From positions 945,694-1,009,693 of the forward strand of contig OZ245745.1 in assembly GCA_965227605.1 (NCBI GenBank): DNA of 64,000 nucleotides. The letters are read 5' to 3'. The DNA comes from Phycisphaerales bacterium (GTDB taxonomy: Bacteria; Planctomycetota; Phycisphaerae; Phycisphaerales; UBA1924). The position numbers and the translations under genes were made by a program. The notes beneath the pieces were generated by a model. The model made no database searches, had not been told where the DNA came from, and was given only the letters and a program-made list of their open reading frames with translations. Shown piece by piece: positions 9,556 to 52,762 of this stretch; the first letter of the stretch is position 1, and each line of letters starts with the position of its first letter.

Positions 9556-10985
9556 GAGGATAGCGAGAAATGCATCAGAAATGCTTCAGTAGGAACCATT
9601 TGCAAAAGCGATTCGAACCACAAGCTAAAACGCAAGGCGACAGTTAAAATTATTTAGTAGTCTTTGCAGCGTAGAGGTTTAAATAATATTGCACGCGTTC
9701 CACGATTTCATCGGCTTCGATAGAGTCATCCACTGCCTGAGTATTTTTTTCCGGTTTTAGCTGCATTCTTGTATAGACAGCTAGTAGTGGATCTGAAAAT
9801 GAGTAGCGTCCGCTAGCAGGGTCAAAGCGAACAAATGTACCTCGTTTGCTTGTTTGAAGTTCATTCAAATAATTGCTGAGGTTGCTTGCAGGATACTCTG
9901 GCGAATCTTTGTGTATAAGCTCAATTAGTTGGGCATGTGTTGCGCCTTCATCTGGCATCGAAGAAAGTGCTGTAAGAATTAAGCGTCCGTTATCATATTT
10001 TACTTCTCGATATCGGCGTATAGCTTTATCGTATCGTTTTTTGAGTGAATCTGATGATTCTCTTACGTATTCTCTGACGGCCTCGCTAAGGGAATCTTCT
10101 GAGACGGTGACTGTATCGTGCGCAGCGTGAGTGATTTCTGCGGCCCTGCATACGTTGAGAGCAATCTGGTGGCACACAGCGCCTAGGCCTGAAGAGTAAT
10201 CTATGATTCCTGAAATAACTTTGCTGGGCAAAATGATATTGAGGATTTTCTGACCTTGAGTTAGTATTTGGCCGAGTTCTTCATCGTCCATAAGGGGAAC
10301 ATGCACCTCACTAACTCTATTGGCAAGTTCTGGGTCATAATCAAGGATTTCTCGCGGGGAATCAGTTGCTCCAATGGCGATTACTTTTACTGTTGGATAA
10401 GCGCTGCTTTCGTCAACAAATACTTTTAGCGCTTGCGCTAGTTTTCCTTTGGCACCTCCAGATACTTTGTGAAAATCTTCAAGTACTAGGCACAAATCCT
10501 GTTCACCGAGCATCTGTGCTAGGCGCTGTGCAGTAAGTTGTGGTGGTACGAGTCTTTCGGCTGTTTCTGAGTTGCCGCTACTTATTCTGCTGTCGATAGT
10601 CGCACGGATAAAAGCATAGCTGGCTTGTACTGAAGCTGATTTACCTTGGCTATTTGATGCTGTTGCTGATGTTGTATAATATAAATTTAGCTGATCAAAA
10701 GCTTCAAGTAATACCTGTTCATATGTAGTGTCTTGTGTGCAGCGAACAGTCACATGGTTAGGGTACAGTTGGTGAAGCTTGTGGTAAATGAGCGAAGATT
10801 TGCCGGATCCCGACTGTCCGTATACTATCAATTGTTTTCCTGGGGTTTGTAGTGCATTGGTAATATCATTTTCTAAATCTGGTCGTTCGACAAAATTAAC
10901 TTTTGCATTTGTTCCTGGTGTAAAGACGTCATAGATAGAGTGAGGGGGTGTTGATGTAGGCATGGCTAAATATTGCAGCTTGCGC
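9556..10985. other. Low-GC (roughly 40%) compositional island, probable horizontally acquired insertion
   Basis: Abrupt drop in GC relative to flanking roughly 68% GC DNA. Carries a single gene (9650..10963). The island boundary lies inside the last codons of ruvB. Confidence 0.7.
9650..10963 (-). CDS. P-loop NTPase of unknown function (Walker A GQSGSGKS, Walker B LCLVLEDFH), foreign-composition gene
   Basis: 437-aa ORF. Walker A is LIVYGQSGSGKSSL (GxxGSGKS-type as in the FtsK/HerA/AAA-like classes). A hydrophobic-DE Walker B lies ~110 aa later. ~200-aa C-terminal domain with no recognisable motif. AT-rich codon usage unlike the neighbours. Confidence 0.7.
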   Translation of the reverse strand: MPTSTPPHSIYDVFTPGTNAKVNFVERPDLENDITNALQTPGKQLIVYGQSGSGKSSLIYHKLHQLYPNHVTVRCTQDTTYEQVLLEAFDQLNLYYTTSATASNSQGKSASVQASYAFIRATIDSRISSGNSETAERLVPPQLTAQRLAQMLGEQDLCLVLEDFHKVSGGAKGKLAQALKVFVDESSAYPTVKVIAIGATDSPREILDYDPELANRVSEVHVPLMDDEELGQILTQGQKILNIILPSKVISGIIDYSSGLGAVCHQIALNVCRAAEITHAAHDTVTVSEDSLSEAVREYVRESSDSLKKRYDKAIRRYREVKYDNGRLILTALSSMPDEGATHAQLIELIHKDSPEYPASNLSNYLNELQTSKRGTFVRFDPASGRYSFSDPLLAVYTRMQLKPEKNTQAVDDSIEADEIVERVQYYLNLYAAKTTK

Positions 10986-46043: not shown

Positions 46044-46598
46044 GTGGTCCGGGCTTTGCCATCTGATGAGGCGATGGTCGAGATCGAACCGCCCCATTCT
46101 GGTTCCGATTCCGGCGGCGCTCGCCGTGGGGGTCGGCTGAACCTTCTGCTGACCGACGGCGGGTGGCGCGAGGAGTCGTGGGCGGATCGTCTGCCGCGGC
46201 TTCTCGAGCCGATGGGCGTGCGTGCGGTGCGGGCGGGGTGCGGTCGTGAGGCCGCGGAGACCCTGCGGAAGACGCCCGTGCACGCTGCGGTGCTCGATCT
46301 GAGCTTGCCCTTGGACGCCCGCGTGCGTCGGGCGGCGGACGCGTCGAACCGCCTGGCGGTGCGTCTGAACGAGGGGGGCGTACGGCTTCTGGAGTATCTG
46401 GCCCGGCTGGAGCAGCGGCCGCCTTTGGTCGTGGTGCGTCAGCCGCGGAGCCAGCGGGAGGACCAGCGGGTGCTGGCCCTGGCGATGAAGCTGGGGGCGT
46501 TCGCGGTGGTGGACCGCCCGGTGGACCTTGAGGCGATGCTCCAGATCCTGTCGCGATTACTTGAGCGGCACTACCGCGGGCGTTGGCCCGGCGTTTGA
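46044..46598 (+). CDS. Single-domain response-regulator receiver (REC)-like protein
   Basis: CheY-like pattern: LNLLLTDGG (acidic pocket, partly degenerate), AAVLDLSLP (phospho-acceptor Asp position), conserved Lys in ALAMKLGAFAVVDRP. Start may be the ATG at 46074. Confidence 0.5.
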   Translation: MVRALPSDEAMVEIEPPHSGSDSGGARRGGRLNLLLTDGGWREESWADRLPRLLEPMGVRAVRAGCGREAAETLRKTPVHAAVLDLSLPLDARVRRAADASNRLAVRLNEGGVRLLEYLARLEQRPPLVVVRQPRSQREDQRVLALAMKLGAFAVVDRPVDLEAMLQILSRLLERHYRGRWPGV

Positions 46599-46680
46599 TT
46601 ACACACTGAACCACTCACACCACTTCAACCCCGGGGAGACCCGGGCCTGAACGATTCTGAGAACGAAGGAGACACTGAAC

Positions 46681-47007
46681 ATGGCGACGGCGACGAAATC
46701 GAAGAAGAAGATCACCACCAAGGTCCGCCCGCTGGGCGACAAGGTGCTCGTGCAGCGCGACGAGTCGGCGGAGGTGACCGAGTCGGGCATCTACCTGCCC
46801 GAGCAGGCCAAGGACAAGCCTAAGTCGGGCGTGATCGTGGCGGTGGGCGACGGCGCCCTCTCGACCGAGACGGGCGAGCGCACGCCCATGACCGTCAAGA
46901 AGGGCGATCGCGTGATCTTCGCCAGCTACGCCGGCACCGAGGTGAAGCTGGGTGACGACGAGCTGCTGATCATGAGCGAGGATGAAATCCTCGCGATTGT
47001 GGACTAA
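46681..47007 (+). CDS. groES: Co-chaperonin GroES
   Basis: 108 aa. VRPLGDKVLVQR ... GIYLPEQAKDKPKSGVIVAVGDG ... VKKGDRVIFASYAGTEVK is canonical GroES. RBS GAAGGAG. Confidence 0.95.
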   Translation: MATATKSKKKITTKVRPLGDKVLVQRDESAEVTESGIYLPEQAKDKPKSGVIVAVGDGALSTETGERTPMTVKKGDRVIFASYAGTEVKLGDDELLIMSEDEILAIVD

Positions 47008-47029
47008 TTACCAACCAAGCGGAGGCCAT

Positions 47030-47410
47030 ATGAGCACAGTCACAGAACATCATTCAATCACGGTTCCCATCTTTTCACGTCGATGGGGCCACGATGATAA
47101 CTGGACTTTCACAATGACCGACGAAGGGTGGGTAATCCAACTGGGTGCTCACACAGCACATGTCATCATTGAGCCCAAGGACGAAGTTCGTCCCAGCGAA
47201 ACGCTCTCAAAGTGGGCTAGAAATGACATGGTGACGCTTCCTGCTGGAACAACTGGATTTCTCGAGCATGTGTGGAGCCGTGCTCAGGAAGAAACGTTGT
47301 CTCGCGAACAGGTCAAGGCTGCGATCGAAGACATCGCGGAGTGGATTAACGCCACATCGAAGAGCAGGCCCAAGCGTGAAGAGGGTTTGTTTCACGAGTA
47401 CTTCGGTTAA
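47030..47410 (+). CDS. Hypothetical protein (126 aa), first gene of intra-groESL cassette
   Basis: ATG at 47030 preceded by GGAGG. No recognisable motif. Confidence 0.5.
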
Positions 47411-47412
47411 AC

Positions 47413-47616
47413 ATGACTTCCGACCAGCTCCGACAAGCGCTCGGCGAGCTCAACTCTGAGCGGGACGCCGAGTTTCATTTCGAGGGCGCTCCCCCGTGTC
47501 TGGTGCCTGGGGCGATCCTGATCCCTGACGAGGCGGACCATCTGGTCAAGGTTTCGGACGGGAAGCACGTCTACCTGATCGACGCGGAGCGCGTCGCCTG
47601 GGTCAAGATCGGGTAG
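47413..47616 (+). CDS. Hypothetical small protein (67 aa), second gene of intra-groESL cassette
   Basis: ATG 3 nt after the previous stop, suggesting coupled translation. No recognisable motif. Confidence 0.4.
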
Positions 47617-47698
47617 CCGCAAGATCGGTTGAGCGCACTTCGACACAAACACCAACACGCACATCAACGCACGACGAAACGATAAGGAACGAACGAAC

Positions 47699-49333
<1,635 letters not shown>

Positions 49334-49383
49334 GTCGAGAGCACAAAAAGTTCGGCCGCCTTTAACCGGGCGGTCGGGCATTC

Positions 49384-50217
49384 ATGGTCGTCCTTGACAA
49401 TCAGCGGGCGTTGAACGCAAGGCATCGTCGTGGCTATTGCTATCTTTGTGGCAAGCCATTTGAGCGCGAAGACATCACAAAGGACCATGCGCCTCCGATC
49501 AATCTCTTTGATCAAAATGATCGACAAAACGTTGTAATACTACCAGCTCATTTTAAATGTAACCAAGCAGCGTCATTCGACGATGAACGATCGATACAAT
49601 TACTAACTCCATATCTATGGGGTAACTCGATATCAAAAGATCGGCTACGCTTGAACTATCGCGCAGTTCACGACGAAAACACTCAACGGAATATAGGTGG
49701 AATCCGGGGAGCCGAACTTTACAGAGCTATATACCGTTGGATTCAAGGCTTTCATTGTCTGTTGTACGATGAATTTTTGCCACCACATCCAGTGACGAAG
49801 CATGCCATATCTTGCCCTCTGTATAGAGGTGTTGAACAAGAAGACGAGATGAAGATGCACGGACCTCAGCCTGCTCACCGTGTAATGGTTCGGCAATTAC
49901 GTATCAACAGACTGGCGTCGCGAGTGGATCGGATTGAAGCGTACAACGGTAAATTGAAGTATGAGTGCTGCTGGGTACGTATGGATGATGGGAGCCCAGC
50001 ATGTCTCTGGGGTATGCAAATATATGATTGGGAGAAGCTGACTCCTCAAGAATTTTTTCCTAAGCACGGCTGTGTCGGTTTTTATTTATCGTCTAATGGT
50101 AAGCCTGTGCGGGCAGAATGGTCTACGAGCGTGGAATACGATCATTCGTTGGATGATCTTTTACCCTTCGACTCTGCAGAGTCCCCTGCGACAGCGCCCC
50201 AGAATCCGACAGACTAA
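49384..50217 (+). CDS. HNH (His-Me finger) nuclease-domain protein with ~190-aa C-terminal domain of unknown function
   Basis: The N-terminus CYLCGKPFEREDITKDHAPPINLF ... ILPAHFKCNQ fits the CxxC / DH / H..CN HNH pattern. The rest is Cys/Trp-rich and unassignable. Confidence 0.6.
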   Translation: MVVLDNQRALNARHRRGYCYLCGKPFEREDITKDHAPPINLFDQNDRQNVVILPAHFKCNQAASFDDERSIQLLTPYLWGNSISKDRLRLNYRAVHDENTQRNIGGIRGAELYRAIYRWIQGFHCLLYDEFLPPHPVTKHAISCPLYRGVEQEDEMKMHGPQPAHRVMVRQLRINRLASRVDRIEAYNGKLKYECCWVRMDDGSPACLWGMQIYDWEKLTPQEFFPKHGCVGFYLSSNGKPVRAEWSTSVEYDHSLDDLLPFDSAESPATAPQNPTD

Positions 50218-50367
50218 GTGTAGTGCTGGTTGTGAATCTATTAGCGATTTGAAGGACTTTCCTGACAGCCGCTTCATTGTCGTCTACTTCTGAACTGCCG
50301 CAAACCCTTCAAGCGACTCTTCCAACGCATTGGCAAACTTCACGGCCTTCACGCTTACCCACAGCAC

Positions 50368-50399
50368 GAAAAAACCGGCCCCAATCACTCGGGGCCGGT
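50368..50399 (-). terminator. Rho-independent terminator for the PEP-CTERM gene (minus strand: CCGGCCCCGAGTGATTGGGGCCGG plus T7)
   Basis: 8-bp GC stem, followed by TTTTTTT on the minus strand, 20 nt after the stop of 50421..51167. Confidence 0.65.
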
Positions 50400-50420
50400 C
50401 GGGACAAGATTTCGTAATGA

Positions 50421-51167
50421 TCAGCGTCGGCGGCGGAACGCCCCCAGCCCTCCGGCCAGCAGGAGCGCTGCGCTGGGGGAAGGCACGATCTCGATGTCCT
50501 GGCTGAAGGTGAGGAAGCGGTTGGCTTCGGAGTCGATCCAGTCGATCGAGGCGAATGTGCCTGTGAAGATGTTCGAGACGATGGTCGGGTCGCCGGTGAG
50601 GTTTGGAACGGACGTCACCTCATCGACATCGCCAAGGATCGTGAACTGGCCGGCGAAGATCAGCCAAAGGCCTGTGTCGGGGTCCTGCATACCGTTCGGG
50701 CCGCCGGCGTGCCCGGGGTAGATGGTGGGGAGGCCCTTGTTTTCGGGCACGCCGGACCATGAGCCGTCCACGCCGTCACTGACGAACTCGAGGTCGGGGT
50801 TGGCCGAGGTCGTGGATGGGGCGGTGATCGGCCCGACGCTCACATAGCTGTCCCACTCGGAGGAGGGCACGGCCGGGAAGACGGCCGGGTTGATGTTTTG
50901 GGAGCTGTCGCCGCCGAACGGGTCCTGGTAGAGCTGCAGGCCGTTGCGCGTTCTGACGCTGTCGGTACCCGCGAACATGGTGAGCAGCGTGTTTTCCGGG
51001 TCATCGAAGGCGATGTAGAGGCGGGTGACGGTGGCGGCTTGGCCGATGGCGGCGGTCGCGGCGGCGTTCCAGGAGTCATCGGTGAGGAACACGCCGCCGC
51101 GGAAGTCGGCGGGGGCGGCGAGCGCGGGGAGCAACGCGACGGCGAGTGCGCATGGATAGCGTTTCAT
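50421..51167 (-). CDS. PEP-CTERM sorting-domain secreted protein
   Basis: Signal peptide MKRYPCALAVALLPALAAPA. The C-terminus VPSPSAALLLAGGLGAFRRRR is a PEP-like motif, then a TM helix, then an Arg cluster. Confidence 0.75.
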   Translation of the reverse strand: MKRYPCALAVALLPALAAPADFRGGVFLTDDSWNAAATAAIGQAATVTRLYIAFDDPENTLLTMFAGTDSVRTRNGLQLYQDPFGGDSSQNINPAVFPAVPSSEWDSYVSVGPITAPSTTSANPDLEFVSDGVDGSWSGVPENKGLPTIYPGHAGGPNGMQDPDTGLWLIFAGQFTILGDVDEVTSVPNLTGDPTIVSNIFTGTFASIDWIDSEANRFLTFSQDIEIVPSPSAALLLAGGLGAFRRRR

Positions 51168-51294
51168 GGGTTCTTCCCTCTCTGTGGGCGCCGTGAGGTT
51201 TGACGTGTTTCAGGGCGCGGTTGCGTTCGATACGGGTCGCAGCTGGTTACGGTTGCAGGGCTGGGGAACCTTTACAAGAGAGAAACAGGCGCGA

Positions 51295-51825
51295 TCAACG
51301 CGGTTTTTTGCGTGAGACAGCCTTCTTCTTTGTGGTTTTCTTCTTCGTGGTCGCCTTCTTCCGCGCCGGGCGCGGGGCTTCGAGCGAGCTCTCGTACGCC
51401 TTGATGAATTTCTTGACGGTCATCCGCTTGACGGTTTTGGCGATGACGTCGAGCGGGACGTCTTCCAGCTTCTTGAAGCGGACGCAGCTTTTGCCCATGT
51501 CGAGCTTGTGGCCGGTGTTCTTCCACGCCTCCTGGAAGCGTTCGACCTCGCCCTCGTCGCAGTAGAGGCAGAAGAGGTAGAGGGCCATGTGGTTCTTCTG
51601 GCTGGCGAGGCTGAGGAAGGGGAGGGGCTGTTTGGGGTTGCAGTGGTAGCCGGCGGGGTAGACGGAGTGGGGGATGGCGTAGCCGATCATGCCGTACTGG
51701 ATGACCTCCCTGACCTGGGGGTCGAGGTTGTCCTTGATGGCCTTGCGGATGGCTTTGATGGCTTTGCGGCGGTCGTCTGGGAGCTCTTTGAGGTACTCGC
51801 TGACGGTGGGGGCGGCGCTTTGCAT
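51295..51825 (-). CDS. DUF1801 (YdhG-like) domain protein with Lys-rich C-terminal tail
   Basis: YdhG/DUF1801-like core (QYGMIGYAIPHSVYPAGYHCNPKQPLPFLSLASQKNHMALYL). C-terminal KKATTKKKTTKKKAVSRKKPR. Confidence 0.55.
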   Translation of the reverse strand: MQSAAPTVSEYLKELPDDRRKAIKAIRKAIKDNLDPQVREVIQYGMIGYAIPHSVYPAGYHCNPKQPLPFLSLASQKNHMALYLFCLYCDEGEVERFQEAWKNTGHKLDMGKSCVRFKKLEDVPLDVIAKTVKRMTVKKFIKAYESSLEAPRPARKKATTKKKTTKKKAVSRKKPR

Positions 51826-52054: not shown

Positions 52055-52762
52055 ATGAGCATCAAGACACTCGCCGGCCTTGCCGGCGTTGCTGCGTTCG
52101 CCGCTACGGCGACGGCGCAGTTCACGGCTTCCCAGTTCGCCCCGCGCGATCTGGACGAGCCCACCACGTCGCGCGGCGCTGCCGGCGACACGGCCTCGAC
52201 CGCGTTGACGGTCTTCGGTCCGACGATGTCGGGCTTCCTGGCCGGTCCGATCGATCACACGATCGGCTCTACCGAAACCTTCCCCGTCAACACCGCTGTT
52301 GATGTCACGTCGAGCGTTGTCGATAACGGCGACGGCACTCGCACGCTGACCATCAACTGGATGTCGAACAACGGCGCGGCTCTCTTCGGGCCCAACGCGT
52401 TTGGCACCGAGCCCATCACCACGCTCGGTTTCGAGCTTGGCGAGAACAACGCCGGTATGAACACCGTCGATCCCACCATGTACGCGGGCATCGCTGATCC
52501 GGACACGGAGCCGGACGGCGTGTTCGAGGCTGGCTTCGAGCTCCTCGACGCCAGCGGCGGCTCGCTCTTCTCGGGCAACTTCTTCGTCACTGACACCGGC
52601 ACCGGTTTCAGCGGCGTGACCTTCATCGGGGCCGGCGGCGCCGACCTCGGTAACTTCAACATCGGTGGCGGCACCGCGACCATCACCTACTTCATCCCGG
52701 CGCCCGGCGCCGCGGCGCTCTTCGGTCTCGGCGGTCTCGCCGCTGCCCGTCGTCGTCGCTAA
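52055..52762 (+). CDS. PEP-CTERM sorting-domain secreted protein
   Basis: Signal peptide. The C-terminus IPAPGAAALFGLGGLAAARRRR is a PEP-like motif, then a TM helix, then an Arg cluster. Unrelated N-terminal domain, Gly/Thr-rich. Confidence 0.75.
   Translation: MSIKTLAGLAGVAAFAATATAQFTASQFAPRDLDEPTTSRGAAGDTASTALTVFGPTMSGFLAGPIDHTIGSTETFPVNTAVDVTSSVVDNGDGTRTLTINWMSNNGAALFGPNAFGTEPITTLGFELGENNAGMNTVDPTMYAGIADPDTEPDGVFEAGFELLDASGGSLFSGNFFVTDTGTGFSGVTFIGAGGADLGNFNIGGGTATITYFIPAPGAAALFGLGGLAAARRRR

What the first reader, a model, noticed from the sequence alone, without database searches (positions are those of the whole stretch)
49340..50420. AT-rich island directly 3' of groEL encoding an HNH-nuclease-domain protein
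Immediately after the groEL stop the GC drops to roughly 45% for ~1 kb. The single ORF (277 aa) starts with a textbook His-Me finger (CYLCGKPFEREDITKDHAPPINLF ... ILPAHFKCNQ). A Cys/Trp-rich ~190-aa domain of unknown function follows. A standalone HNH nuclease fused to an unknown domain, on foreign-composition DNA, is a typical architecture for defence or abortive-infection effectors, or for homing endonucleases. Together with the intra-groESL cassette, this gives two separate foreign insertions bracketing groEL.
Basis: partly seen in the sequence, partly recalled or inferred. Interest (0 to 1): 0.66.

Follow-up and report, generated by a model that had tools for sequence, protein, structure and literature searches.

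The report
Foreign stand-alone HNH nuclease after groEL
Right after the chaperonin gene groEL, this planctomycete carries a horizontally acquired gene from an undescribed protein family: a DNA-cutting HNH module fused to a domain with no known relative, probably a self-contained anti-phage nuclease.

Summary
ORF 49384-50217 (+, 277 aa) lies in a ~1 kb island of 42-48% GC (GC3 44%) in a 66% GC genome, 50 nt after the groEL stop.

It is not an orphan. A full HMMER scan finds about 460 clusters of ~265-aa proteins with the same two-domain build. None has a Pfam, NCBIfam or PADLOC assignment.

Across the family:
- purifying selection is strong (dN/dS 0.07-0.23);
- the gene moves as a bare ORF with no conserved partner;
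- it is absent from the phage, viral and plasmid collections searched;
- it often sits beside toxin-antitoxin, Abi, TIR, HEPN, PifA, Shedu, restriction-modification and integrase genes.

Most likely it is a new single-gene defence-type nuclease, gated or targeted by its C-terminal domain. Function is inferred, not shown.

Only one of the two genes between groES and groEL is foreign. A third foreign island after ruvB encodes a PADLOC candidate defence NTPase.

The parts
49350..49379 (+). Strong 12-bp GC hairpin 16 nt after the groEL stop. It has no U-tract on the + strand and a T-run on the - strand. It is probably the native groEL terminator stem. The HNH ATG follows 4 nt after it.
   Evidence: RNA fold -29.7 kcal/mol, z -3.05. 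The terminator scan flags it on the - strand only. Relatives have a hairpin plus T-rich tail after groEL.
49384..50217 (+). 277-aa ORF: an intact member of an undescribed family combining an HNH nuclease with a novel domain.
   Evidence: GC 0.47, GC3 0.44.
49426..49572 (+). N-terminal ββα-metal (HNH) nuclease module, residues ~15-63. Zn ligands are C19, C22, H56 and C59. The catalytic pair is D34-H35, and N60 is the metal ligand.
49573..50175 (+). C-terminal ~200-aa α/β domain (residues ~64-264) with no detectable relative. Signature elements are D67, R118-G-F-H124-x-x-L-Y128, P145, D182, Y193-E-C195-x-W197, C207, Y214-x-W216, C230-x-G232-x-Y234, P241 and P261-F262.
   Evidence: conservation. 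(pLDDT mostly above 85). (no sequence or fold match). (the domain is found only in this architecture).
50218..50372 (.). Low-GC non-coding 3' tail of the island. No ORF, no RNA family, and no attC-like structure.
   Evidence: (fold z -1.1).
50363..50400 (-). Intrinsic terminator (12-bp stem plus T-run) of the convergent native gene 50421..51167. It marks the right edge of the island. It resembles the left hairpin (GCAC-A5...GGSCGGTCGGG).
   Evidence: (repeat D13). The similarity of the two flanks is only z 2.7.
47030..47410 (+). Second foreign single-gene island, 22 nt after the groES stop. It encodes a 126-aa protein of Pfam PF21648, 'integron cassette protein'.
   Evidence: Pfam E 2.1e-14. 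GC 0.51. No homologue in relatives' groESL loci.
9650..10963 (-). Third foreign single-gene island, 2 nt after the ruvB stop. It encodes a 437-aa STAND-type NTPase matching PADLOC candidate defence system PDC-S59.
   Evidence: GC 0.43, GC3 0.33. Pfam AAA_16 and nSTAND1. PADLOC PDC-S59 E 6e-32 over 17-401/428. Junction sequences.

Best explanation
The ORF is an intact, horizontally acquired copy of an uncharacterised bacterial protein family of about 460 clusters at 50% identity and a fixed length of about 265 aa.

Shown:
- The protein has an N-terminal HNH/ββα-metal nuclease with a CCHC zinc knuckle and D-H...N catalytic residues.
- This module is packed against a ~200-aa α/β domain that has no detectable sequence or fold relative and occurs only in this fusion.
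- The family is under strong purifying selection.
- The gene moves between genomes as little more than the ORF itself.
- It has no conserved partner gene.
- It is repeatedly found in small accessory patches next to toxin-antitoxin, Abi, TIR, HEPN, PifA, Shedu, restriction-modification and integrase genes.

Inferred:
- It is a self-contained anti-mobile-element (phage or plasmid) nuclease.
- The C-terminal domain recognises a non-self feature and thereby targets or unlocks the HNH site. The feature is most plausibly modified or otherwise foreign nucleic acid, as in Type IV restriction. Alternatively it is a phage product that relieves autoinhibition, as in fused toxin-antitoxin sensors.
- This would explain why a lone nuclease can be dropped into unrelated hosts without an immunity gene.
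- In this genome the gene sits between the groEL terminator hairpin and the terminator of the convergent gene, with no promoter-like site. It is presumably expressed only by read-through from the heat-shock groESL operon.
For: Foreignness:
- GC 0.42-0.48 against 0.62-0.74 in the flanks.
- GC3 0.44 against about 0.88 in native genes.
- Absent from the groESL loci of the nearest genomes, L001 and L002, which share the flanking response-regulator gene, groES, the 67-aa ORF and groEL.

Real family:
- 464 representatives at E<=1e-3 and 80 at E<=1e-30; those listed that are full-length are ~250-320 aa.
- 122 and 175 hits with the full-length and C-terminal-only profiles. All listed full-length hits share this length and build, apart from a few with an added N-terminal DUF2934; all are annotated 'hypothetical'.
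- Shorter hits are truncations.

Active-site integrity:
- H35, H56 and D67 are invariant; C19, C22, D34, C59 and N60 are invariant or at least 90% conserved, and all are present in the window copy.

Structure:
- pLDDT 90.5, pTM 0.89.

Selection:
- dN/dS 0.07-0.23 in 13 pairs.

Mobility as a bare ORF:
- Nucleotide homology between copies ends within a few nt of the start and stop codons.
- Only 2 of 15 pairs at 70-85% protein identity share any neighbouring ORF, and an 87% pair shares none.
- L081 and L124 carry the gene on opposite sides of the same host gene block.

No partner:
- No neighbour cluster recurs in more than 3 of 68 distinct contexts.
- The window copy has no adjacent ORF at all.

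Defence and mobile-element neighbourhood:
- AbiJ immediately upstream, HicB, PIN/RHH, PhdYeFM, HicA, SIR2_2 with DUF4062, a conjugation (T4SS) region with Methylase_S and AAA_15, and transposases.
- A random sample of 148 ORFs within 2.5 kb of family genes hits PifA (1e-90), Type IIG restriction-modification (1e-95), bSEFIR, MADS mad2/3/8, SduA, SAVED-HNH and about 10 PDC candidates.
- The same sample hits Pfam TIR_2, HEPN_AbiU2, SLFN_AlbA_2, KAP_NTPase and Phage_integrase.
- A control of 148 groEL-neighbour ORFs gives mostly generic kinase, dCTPase, QueC and Fic hits.

Same window:
- Another low-GC single-gene island encodes PADLOC candidate PDC-S59.
Against: - No assay exists: nuclease activity and phage protection are untested.
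- PADLOC 2.0 does not recognise the window protein or three of four other members tested. The fourth gives only a weak match limited to the HNH region (PDC-M01B, E 1e-4).
- The defence-neighbour comparison is qualitative. The tool reports families, not per-ORF counts, and ORFs came from a crude caller. The groEL control is housekeeping by design, so it cannot separate a defence patch from an ordinary accessory patch.
- Two of eleven annotated contexts (L173, L175) show only hypothetical neighbours.
- The C-terminal domain resembles no known modified-DNA reader or ligand sensor.
- The middle Asn of the classical H-N-H motif is not conserved in the family.
- Pfam HNH scores are below threshold.
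- Expression in this genome is unproven. The hairpin before the ATG may terminate groEL transcripts.
Confidence: 0.5

Rival explanations
1. A free-standing homing endonuclease, that is, a selfish gene. The HNH cuts a site in or near a conserved gene (here groEL or its terminator). Repair then copies the ORF into the cut allele. The C-terminal domain is its DNA-recognition module.
For: - Homology between copies is confined almost exactly to the ORF, and the gene relocates often.
- It lies directly 3' of a highly conserved gene.
- An N-terminal HNH with a C-terminal extension is the layout of phage Mob-type endonucleases (own knowledge).
- Weak PHROG hits to phage HNH endonucleases.
Against: - No copy in IMG/VR viral contigs, GenBank phages, plasmids or BFVD.
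- No recurring neighbour or target gene in 68 contexts.
- Neighbours are variable accessory and defence genes rather than conserved targets.
- No NUMOD or HTH-type DNA-binding modules.
- dN/dS is uniformly low.
- The other two islands in the window have the same 'just after a conserved gene' placement but encode no nuclease, so that placement does not need homing.
Confidence: 0.15
2. A ligand-activated effector of a signalling defence pathway, working like CBASS Cap5. The C-terminal domain binds a nucleotide second messenger made by an enzyme encoded elsewhere and switches on the HNH.
For: - The domain order is the same: HNH, then a regulatory α/β domain.
- Being harmless without its signal would explain why it tolerates solitary transfer.
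Against: - There is no SAVED, CARF or other sensor match in Pfam or PADLOC.
- The predicted topology is mainly antiparallel β-meanders, unlike Rossmann-like CARF/SAVED (own knowledge of SAVED).
- No cyclase or other conserved neighbour was found in 68 contexts or in the window.
Confidence: 0.1
3. A toxin-type nuclease (toxin-antitoxin, abortive-infection or interbacterial). Its cognate immunity or antitoxin is small and too divergent to be recognised, or has been lost here, leaving a silent or decaying copy.
For: - Some members have a small overlapping or adjacent ORF: a 69-aa ORF upstream in L087, L088 and L165; a 97-aa ORF downstream in L084; HTH_3 upstream in L176.
- Toxin-antitoxin genes are frequent nearby.
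Against: - These small ORFs are unrelated to each other and have no Pfam match.
- The window copy has no adjacent ORF, yet keeps every invariant residue.
- There is no secretion or toxin-delivery domain.
Confidence: 0.08
4. A non-defence cellular role, such as DNA repair or recombination, nucleic-acid processing or regulation. Alternatively it is a functionless passenger in this particular genome.
For: - Many flanking genes are ordinary metabolic genes.
- In the window it sits in a housekeeping neighbourhood behind a strong hairpin, with no promoter-like site.
- Function has never been tested.
Against: - Distribution is patchy across phyla and position is unstable.
- The window copy has the most extreme gene-minus-flank GC difference seen in the family: about -19 points, against a family mean of -2.6.
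- The nearest relatives lack the gene.
- These are not the marks of a core function.
Confidence: 0.15

Closest known systems
Cap5, the HNH-SAVED effector of CBASS (PDB 7RWK, 7RWM; PMC8568899, PMC12141522)
   Different: The similarity is weak (rmsd 12-15 Å) and probably carried by the HNH part. There is no SAVED signature. There is no adjacent CD-NTase. The protein is about 90 aa shorter.
Minimal D-H...N type HNH endonucleases, e.g. the HNH endonuclease of PDB 4H9D; T4 endonuclease VII / Cas9-HNH type active site
   Same: CxxC...DH...xxCN motif with a zinc knuckle and D-H/N catalytic residues. It is the best sequence match in the PDB (E 4.6e-4).
   Different: The second zinc pair is HxxC instead of CxxC. 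The middle Asn is not conserved in the family. A 200-aa extra domain is always attached.
Type IV (modification-dependent) HNH restriction enzymes such as EcoKMcrA (PDB 6GHC)
   Different: The domain order is reversed (HNH first). The second domain has no similarity to any known modified-base reader. Modification dependence is untested.
Free-standing HNH homing endonucleases of phages (Mob family, I-HmuI-like; own knowledge)
   Same: N-terminal HNH with a C-terminal extension. The mobile unit is roughly the ORF. It is inserted between genes next to a conserved gene.
   Different: Not found in any phage or viral collection. No NUMOD or IENR modules. No recurrent target neighbourhood.
Integron gene cassettes carrying compact defence genes (bioRxiv 10.1101/2024.07.02.601686)
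   Same: A promoterless single ORF, co-oriented with and dependent on an upstream promoter. The neighbouring island after groES encodes a Pfam 'integron cassette protein'.
   Different: No attC-like site after the ORF here or in 75 other family loci. No integron array context was seen.

Membership tests
HNH / His-Me finger nuclease superfamily | ββα-metal fold | tested here: met
HNH / His-Me finger nuclease superfamily | Catalytic His on the first strand (D-H) and an Asn/His metal ligand on the helix | tested here: met
   H35 is invariant. D34 and N60 are at least 90% conserved across 104 sequences.
HNH / His-Me finger nuclease superfamily | Structural zinc site (CxxC...CxxC) | tested here: met
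   A variant form, C19-x2-C22 ... H56-x2-C59, conserved family-wide. Metal content is not testable here.
HNH / His-Me finger nuclease superfamily | Score above the Pfam HNH or HNH_5 gathering threshold | tested here: not met
   16.8 and 17.4 bits against cut-offs of 21.4 and 27.5. Only 16 of 44 members give even weak HNH_5 hits. This is a divergent branch, not a Pfam-defined member.
HNH / His-Me finger nuclease superfamily | Metal-dependent nuclease activity | not testable with these tools
   Needs biochemistry.
CBASS Cap5 (HNH-SAVED effector) | C-terminal SAVED (fused CARF-like) domain | tested here: not met
CBASS Cap5 (HNH-SAVED effector) | Adjacent CD-NTase cyclase gene | tested here: not met
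   None in the window neighbourhood. No conserved neighbour in 68 contexts. None in the 11 Pfam-annotated contexts.
Type IV modification-dependent restriction enzyme (McrA-like) | Nuclease fused to a recognisable modified-base reader (SRA, EVE/PUA, YTH, McrB-N etc.) | tested here: not met
   No such fold or profile match for residues 64-264.
Type IV modification-dependent restriction enzyme (McrA-like) | Solitary gene without a cognate methyltransferase or immunity gene | tested here: met
   The window copy has no adjacent ORF. The family has no conserved neighbour.
Type IV modification-dependent restriction enzyme (McrA-like) | Cleavage dependent on DNA modification | not testable with these tools
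   Needs in vitro assays on modified and unmodified DNA.
Free-standing homing endonuclease | Mobile unit limited to the ORF, inserted between genes | tested here: met
   Homology ends within a few nt of the start and stop codons. Contexts differ even at 87% protein identity.
Free-standing homing endonuclease | Recurrent insertion next to the same conserved target gene; residence in phage or other mobile genomes | tested here: not met
   No recurrent neighbour. No phage, viral or plasmid copies.
Integron gene cassette | attC recombination site 3' of the ORF | tested here: not met
   A consensus-based scan found none in the window islands or after 75 family genes. The 3' tail folds no better than shuffles. 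This was a crude test: the IntegronFinder covariance model was not available.
Integron gene cassette | Integron integrase (IntI) and attI nearby | not tested
   Only part of the window's proteins were scanned. The genome outside the window is not available.
Known or candidate defence systems in PADLOC-DB 2.0 | Match to a PADLOC profile | tested here: not met
   No hit at E<=1 for the window protein. Three of four other members also give none. One member has a weak match limited to the HNH region, PDC-M01B at E 1e-4.
Toxin-antitoxin / immunity-paired nuclease toxin | Conserved adjacent antitoxin or immunity gene | tested here: not met
   There is none in the window.

The most novel reading that the evidence does not exclude
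This is a new class of single-polypeptide immune nuclease. A previously unseen α/β domain, possibly holding a second metal site (Cys3-His: H124, C195, C207, C230), senses foreign nucleic acid or a phage product and gates an HNH active site. The gene spreads as a naked ORF that lands immediately 3' of highly expressed conserved genes. Here that gene is groEL, so the nuclease would be made by read-through of a stress-induced operon. The other two foreign islands in the window (after ruvB and after groES) would reflect the same unrecognised insertion route.
Probability: 0.3. Interest if true: 0.7.

Novelty: new variant of a known kind. Interest (0 to 1): 0.5.

Why it matters
If the inference holds, this adds a compact (~265 aa) partner-less nuclease family with a new sensor or targeting fold to the list of bacterial immune genes. 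It is small enough to test directly by expression, phage challenge and an H35A control. It could also be a source of a new nucleic-acid recognition domain.

The family occurs in several phyla: Planctomycetota, Proteobacteria and Binatia. It has escaped Pfam, NCBIfam and PADLOC.

The window also raises a mechanistic question. Three unrelated foreign genes each sit as a bare ORF, co-oriented and 2-50 nt after a conserved housekeeping gene (ruvB, groES, groEL). None has a recognisable mobile-element signature.

Tried and rejected
- Single-sequence AlphaFold was useless (pLDDT 33).
- The word-indexed protein search found only the query itself. An exact look-up of its contig returned nothing.
- afdb50 Foldseek was unavailable, so the C-terminal fold was compared only with PDB and BFVD.
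- Integron-cassette idea: rejected for lack of attC-like sites or structure.
- Phage or plasmid origin: no hits in IMG/VR, GenBank phages, PLSDB or BFVD.
- Conserved partner gene: none. Immediate small neighbours have no Pfam match.
- Conserved non-coding ends (inverted repeats or att sites) shared by family loci: none.
- Flanking direct repeats: present in a few loci (L166, L081, L149). In the window the two terminator-like hairpins share GCAC-A5...GGSCGGTCGGG. The window signal is weak (z 2.7) and the pattern is not general. I therefore do not claim a target-site duplication.
- Other domain architectures for the C-terminal domain: none found; short hits are truncations.
- Rfam and tRNA scans of the island and the window: nothing.
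- σ70-like promoter scan: none in 46400-51400.
Full report
**1. The observation**

- The window has 66% GC. groES (46681-47007) and groEL (47699-49333) are on the + strand.
- Fifty nucleotides after the groEL stop, ORF 49384-50217 (+, 277 aa) begins. It carries exactly the quoted motifs.
- GC in 300-nt windows falls to 0.417-0.483 between 49350 and 50249 and returns to at least 0.59 by 50250-50549.
- The ORF has GC 0.47 and GC3 0.44. Native genes in the window have GC3 0.76-0.94.
- Only four stretches of the 64 kb drop below 54% GC, so the island is real.

**2. Host and synteny**

- The closest groEL loci among 185,579 species representatives are a Planctomycetota MAG (L001, 80% aa) and a Phycisphaeraceae MAG (L002, 79%).
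- Both share the order: response-regulator-like gene, groES, a 67-aa ORF, groEL.
- Neither has a homologue of the 277-aa ORF or of the ORF at 47030-47410.
- So the 67-aa ORF (47413-47616) is native. Only 47030-47410 is foreign inside the operon (GC ~0.51; Pfam PF21648 'integron cassette protein', E 2e-14).
- In L001 and L002, groEL is followed by a hairpin with a T-rich tail.
- In the window the equivalent position holds a 12-bp hairpin (49350-49379; -29.7 kcal/mol, z -3.05). It has no U-tract on the + strand, and the ATG follows 4 nt later.
- No σ70-like promoter is found anywhere in 46400-51400.
- The island ends at the intrinsic terminator (50400-50373, - strand) of the convergent native gene 50421-51167.
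- The two hairpins share flanking motifs (GCAC-A5...GGSCGGTCGGG). As a flanking direct repeat this reaches only z 2.7. I do not claim a target-site duplication.

**3. The protein is not an orphan**

- The word-indexed search of 5.8 billion proteins returned only the protein itself, on a 2.76-Mb contig.
- A full HMMER pass over 1.84 billion 50%-identity representatives found 464 relatives at E<=1e-3, 246 at E<=1e-10 and 80 at E<=1e-30. Those listed that are full-length are ~250-320 aa and match end to end. The best has 41% identity.
- Profile searches gave 122 hits (full length) and 175 hits (C-terminal domain only). All are labelled 'hypothetical' and have no Pfam domain, apart from an occasional extra N-terminal DUF2934.
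- Shorter hits are truncated or frameshifted copies.
- The C-terminal domain was never seen in another architecture.
- Named sources include Phycisphaerae, Proteobacteria, Burkholderiales and Candidatus Binatia.

**4. Anatomy**

- In the 104-sequence alignment, the invariant residues are H35, H56, D67, F123, H124, Y128, D182, C195, G232 and Y234.
- Residues at least 90% conserved include C19, C22, D34, C59, N60, R118, W197, C207, W216, C230, P241 and P261-F262. The window copy keeps all of them.
- AlphaFold2 with this alignment gives pLDDT 90.5 and pTM 0.89.
- The model has a ββα unit (β31-35, β52-56, α57-62) followed by α64-79, β91-97, β102-108, α112-128, β140-143, β148-152, β155-159, α163-177, β182-186, β191-199, β205-213 and β230-235.
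- The N-terminal part reads as a D-H...N type HNH site with a C-C-H-C zinc knuckle.
- Support for the HNH reading:
  - PDB 4h9d, E 4.6e-4;
  - PHROG HNH families, E ~1e-4;
- Pfam HNH models score below threshold, so this is a divergent branch.
- For the C-terminal ~200 residues there is no significant match by any method tried:
  - PDB profile search;
  - Foldseek against PDB, best E 0.23;
  - Foldseek against BFVD;
- AFDB could not be searched.
- H124, C195, C207 and C230 could form a second metal site.

**5. Evolutionary behaviour**

- Family genes range from 39 to 68% GC. On average they are 2.6 points below their flanks. The window copy, at about -19 points, lies beyond the largest deficit found among the family loci (-14).
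- dN/dS is 0.07-0.23 in 13 pairs.
- Nucleotide homology between copies at 74-85% identity stops within a few bases of the start and stop codons.
- Among pairs with at least 1.5 kb of comparable flank, all 14 pairs at 95% protein identity or more share neighbours. Only 2 of 15 pairs at 70-85% do, and an 87% pair shares none.
- L081 and L124 carry the gene on opposite sides of the same host gene block.
- No conserved non-coding ends are shared.
- No attC-like sites were found in 75 loci or in the window.
- No tRNA and no Rfam element were found.
- There are no copies in IMG/VR, GenBank phages, PLSDB plasmids or BFVD.

**6. Neighbourhoods**

- No neighbouring ORF family recurs in more than 3 of 68 distinct contexts. 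Immediate small neighbours have no Pfam match.
- Nine of eleven Pfam-annotated contexts contain defence, toxin-antitoxin or mobile-element markers. Examples:
  - AbiJ 7 nt upstream;
  - HicB;
  - PIN/RHH;
  - PhdYeFM;
  - HicA/PHD;
  - SIR2_2 with DUF4062;
  - RHS/Imm26;
  - a T4SS region with Methylase_S and AAA_15;
  - transposases.
- The remaining two contexts show only hypothetical genes.
- A random sample of 148 ORFs within 2.5 kb of family genes in 58 loci hit these PADLOC models: PifA (1e-90), Type IIG restriction-modification (1e-95), bSEFIR (1e-66), mad2 (two ORFs), mad3, mad8, SduA, SAVED-HNH, and about ten PDC candidates.
- The same sample hit Pfam TIR_2 (two ORFs), HEPN_AbiU2 (two), SLFN_AlbA_2 (two), Phage_integrase (two) and KAP_NTPase.
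- An equally sized control of groEL neighbours gave mainly one kinase matching many PD-T4-6 models, plus generic dCTPase, QueC, Fic and helicase hits.
- This comparison is qualitative. The tool reports by family, not by ORF.

**7. Interpretation**

- Shown: an intact, selected, horizontally mobile HNH-type protein with a novel obligate C-terminal domain. It is foreign to this genome and lies in a position with no promoter or partner of its own.
- Inferred, about 0.5: a self-contained anti-phage or anti-plasmid nuclease.
- The reasoning is that a nuclease able to move alone between phyla must be harmless to naive hosts. That fits two mechanisms:
  - specificity for non-self nucleic acid, as in Type IV restriction;
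  - autoinhibition relieved by an invader cue.
- Rivals and approximate weights:
  - free-standing homing endonuclease, about 0.15;
  - Cap5-like effector of a trans-encoded signalling system, about 0.10;
  - toxin with an unrecognised antitoxin, about 0.08;
  - non-defence role or silent passenger, about 0.15.
- Expression by read-through from groESL is an inference from the anatomy.

**8. The wider window**

- A third low-GC single-gene island (9650-10963, - strand; GC 0.43, GC3 0.33) lies 2 nt after the ruvB stop and before pheT.
- It encodes a STAND-type NTPase matching PADLOC candidate PDC-S59 (E 6e-32, near full length).
- So three unrelated foreign ORFs each sit co-oriented and 2, 22 or 50 nt after a conserved housekeeping gene (ruvB, groES, groEL).
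- Integron cassettes are known stores of compact defence genes (bioRxiv 10.1101/2024.07.02.601686). I found no attC sites, so the insertion route remains unexplained.

**9. Verdict**

- The gene is a divergent HNH nuclease fused to a new domain: a new variant of a known kind, and a credible but untested single-gene defence candidate.

Noticed in passing
window 9650-10963 (-): A third low-GC (43%, GC3 33%) single-gene island lies 2 nt after the ruvB stop and before pheT. It encodes a 437-aa STAND-type NTPase (AAA_16, nSTAND1) that matches PADLOC candidate single-gene defence system PDC-S59 (E 6e-32).
   Followed up: partly
window 47030-47410 (+): The foreign (GC ~51%) 126-aa ORF 22 nt after the groES stop belongs to Pfam PF21648, 'integron cassette protein'. 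It ends 2 nt before the next ATG. Relatives L001 and L002 lack it. No attC-like site is present.
   Followed up: partly
window 47413-47616 (+); L001 5699-5899; L002 5458-5667: A 67-aa ORF of unknown function is conserved (53-58% aa) between groES and groEL in this lineage. The groESL operon here natively has three genes.
   Followed up: partly
window 10961-10968, 47005-47032, 49331-49386: All three foreign ORFs are co-oriented with, and start 2, 22 and 50 nt after, the stop codon of a conserved housekeeping gene (ruvB, groES, groEL). No integrase, transposase, tRNA or repeat signature was found. The insertion route is unexplained.
   Followed up: partly
window 49341-49381 and 50364-50406: The two terminator-like hairpins bounding the HNH island share GCAC-A5 before the stem and GGSCGGTCGGG at its 3' side. 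These are the only exact occurrences of the latter motif in the 64-kb window. As a flanking repeat the alignment reaches only z 2.7.
   Followed up: yes
L091 9807-9860 and L164 1083-1136: A 54-nt non-coding segment (85% identical) lies upstream of the family gene in one metagenomic contig and downstream of the 92%-identical gene in another. This hints at a repeat or att-like sequence bordering that subfamily's mobile unit.
   Followed up: partly
L081 10001-15773 and L124 2576-8747: Two related host genomes share a block of about 8 genes, but the HNH-family gene sits at opposite ends of it. This is direct evidence that the gene relocates.
   Followed up: partly
window 50421-51167 (-) and 52055-52762 (+): Two native secreted-looking proteins end in similar tails resembling a PEP-CTERM sorting signal (...PSPSAALLLAGGLGAFRRRR and ...PAPGAAALFGLGGLAAARRRR). 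Neither has a significant Pfam match over the rest of the protein.
   Followed up: no
proteins P0227, P0229, P0255, P0259 (family members): A subset of family members carries an extra N-terminal DUF2934 segment. One (P0255) appears fused or frameshifted to a short-chain dehydrogenase.
   Followed up: no
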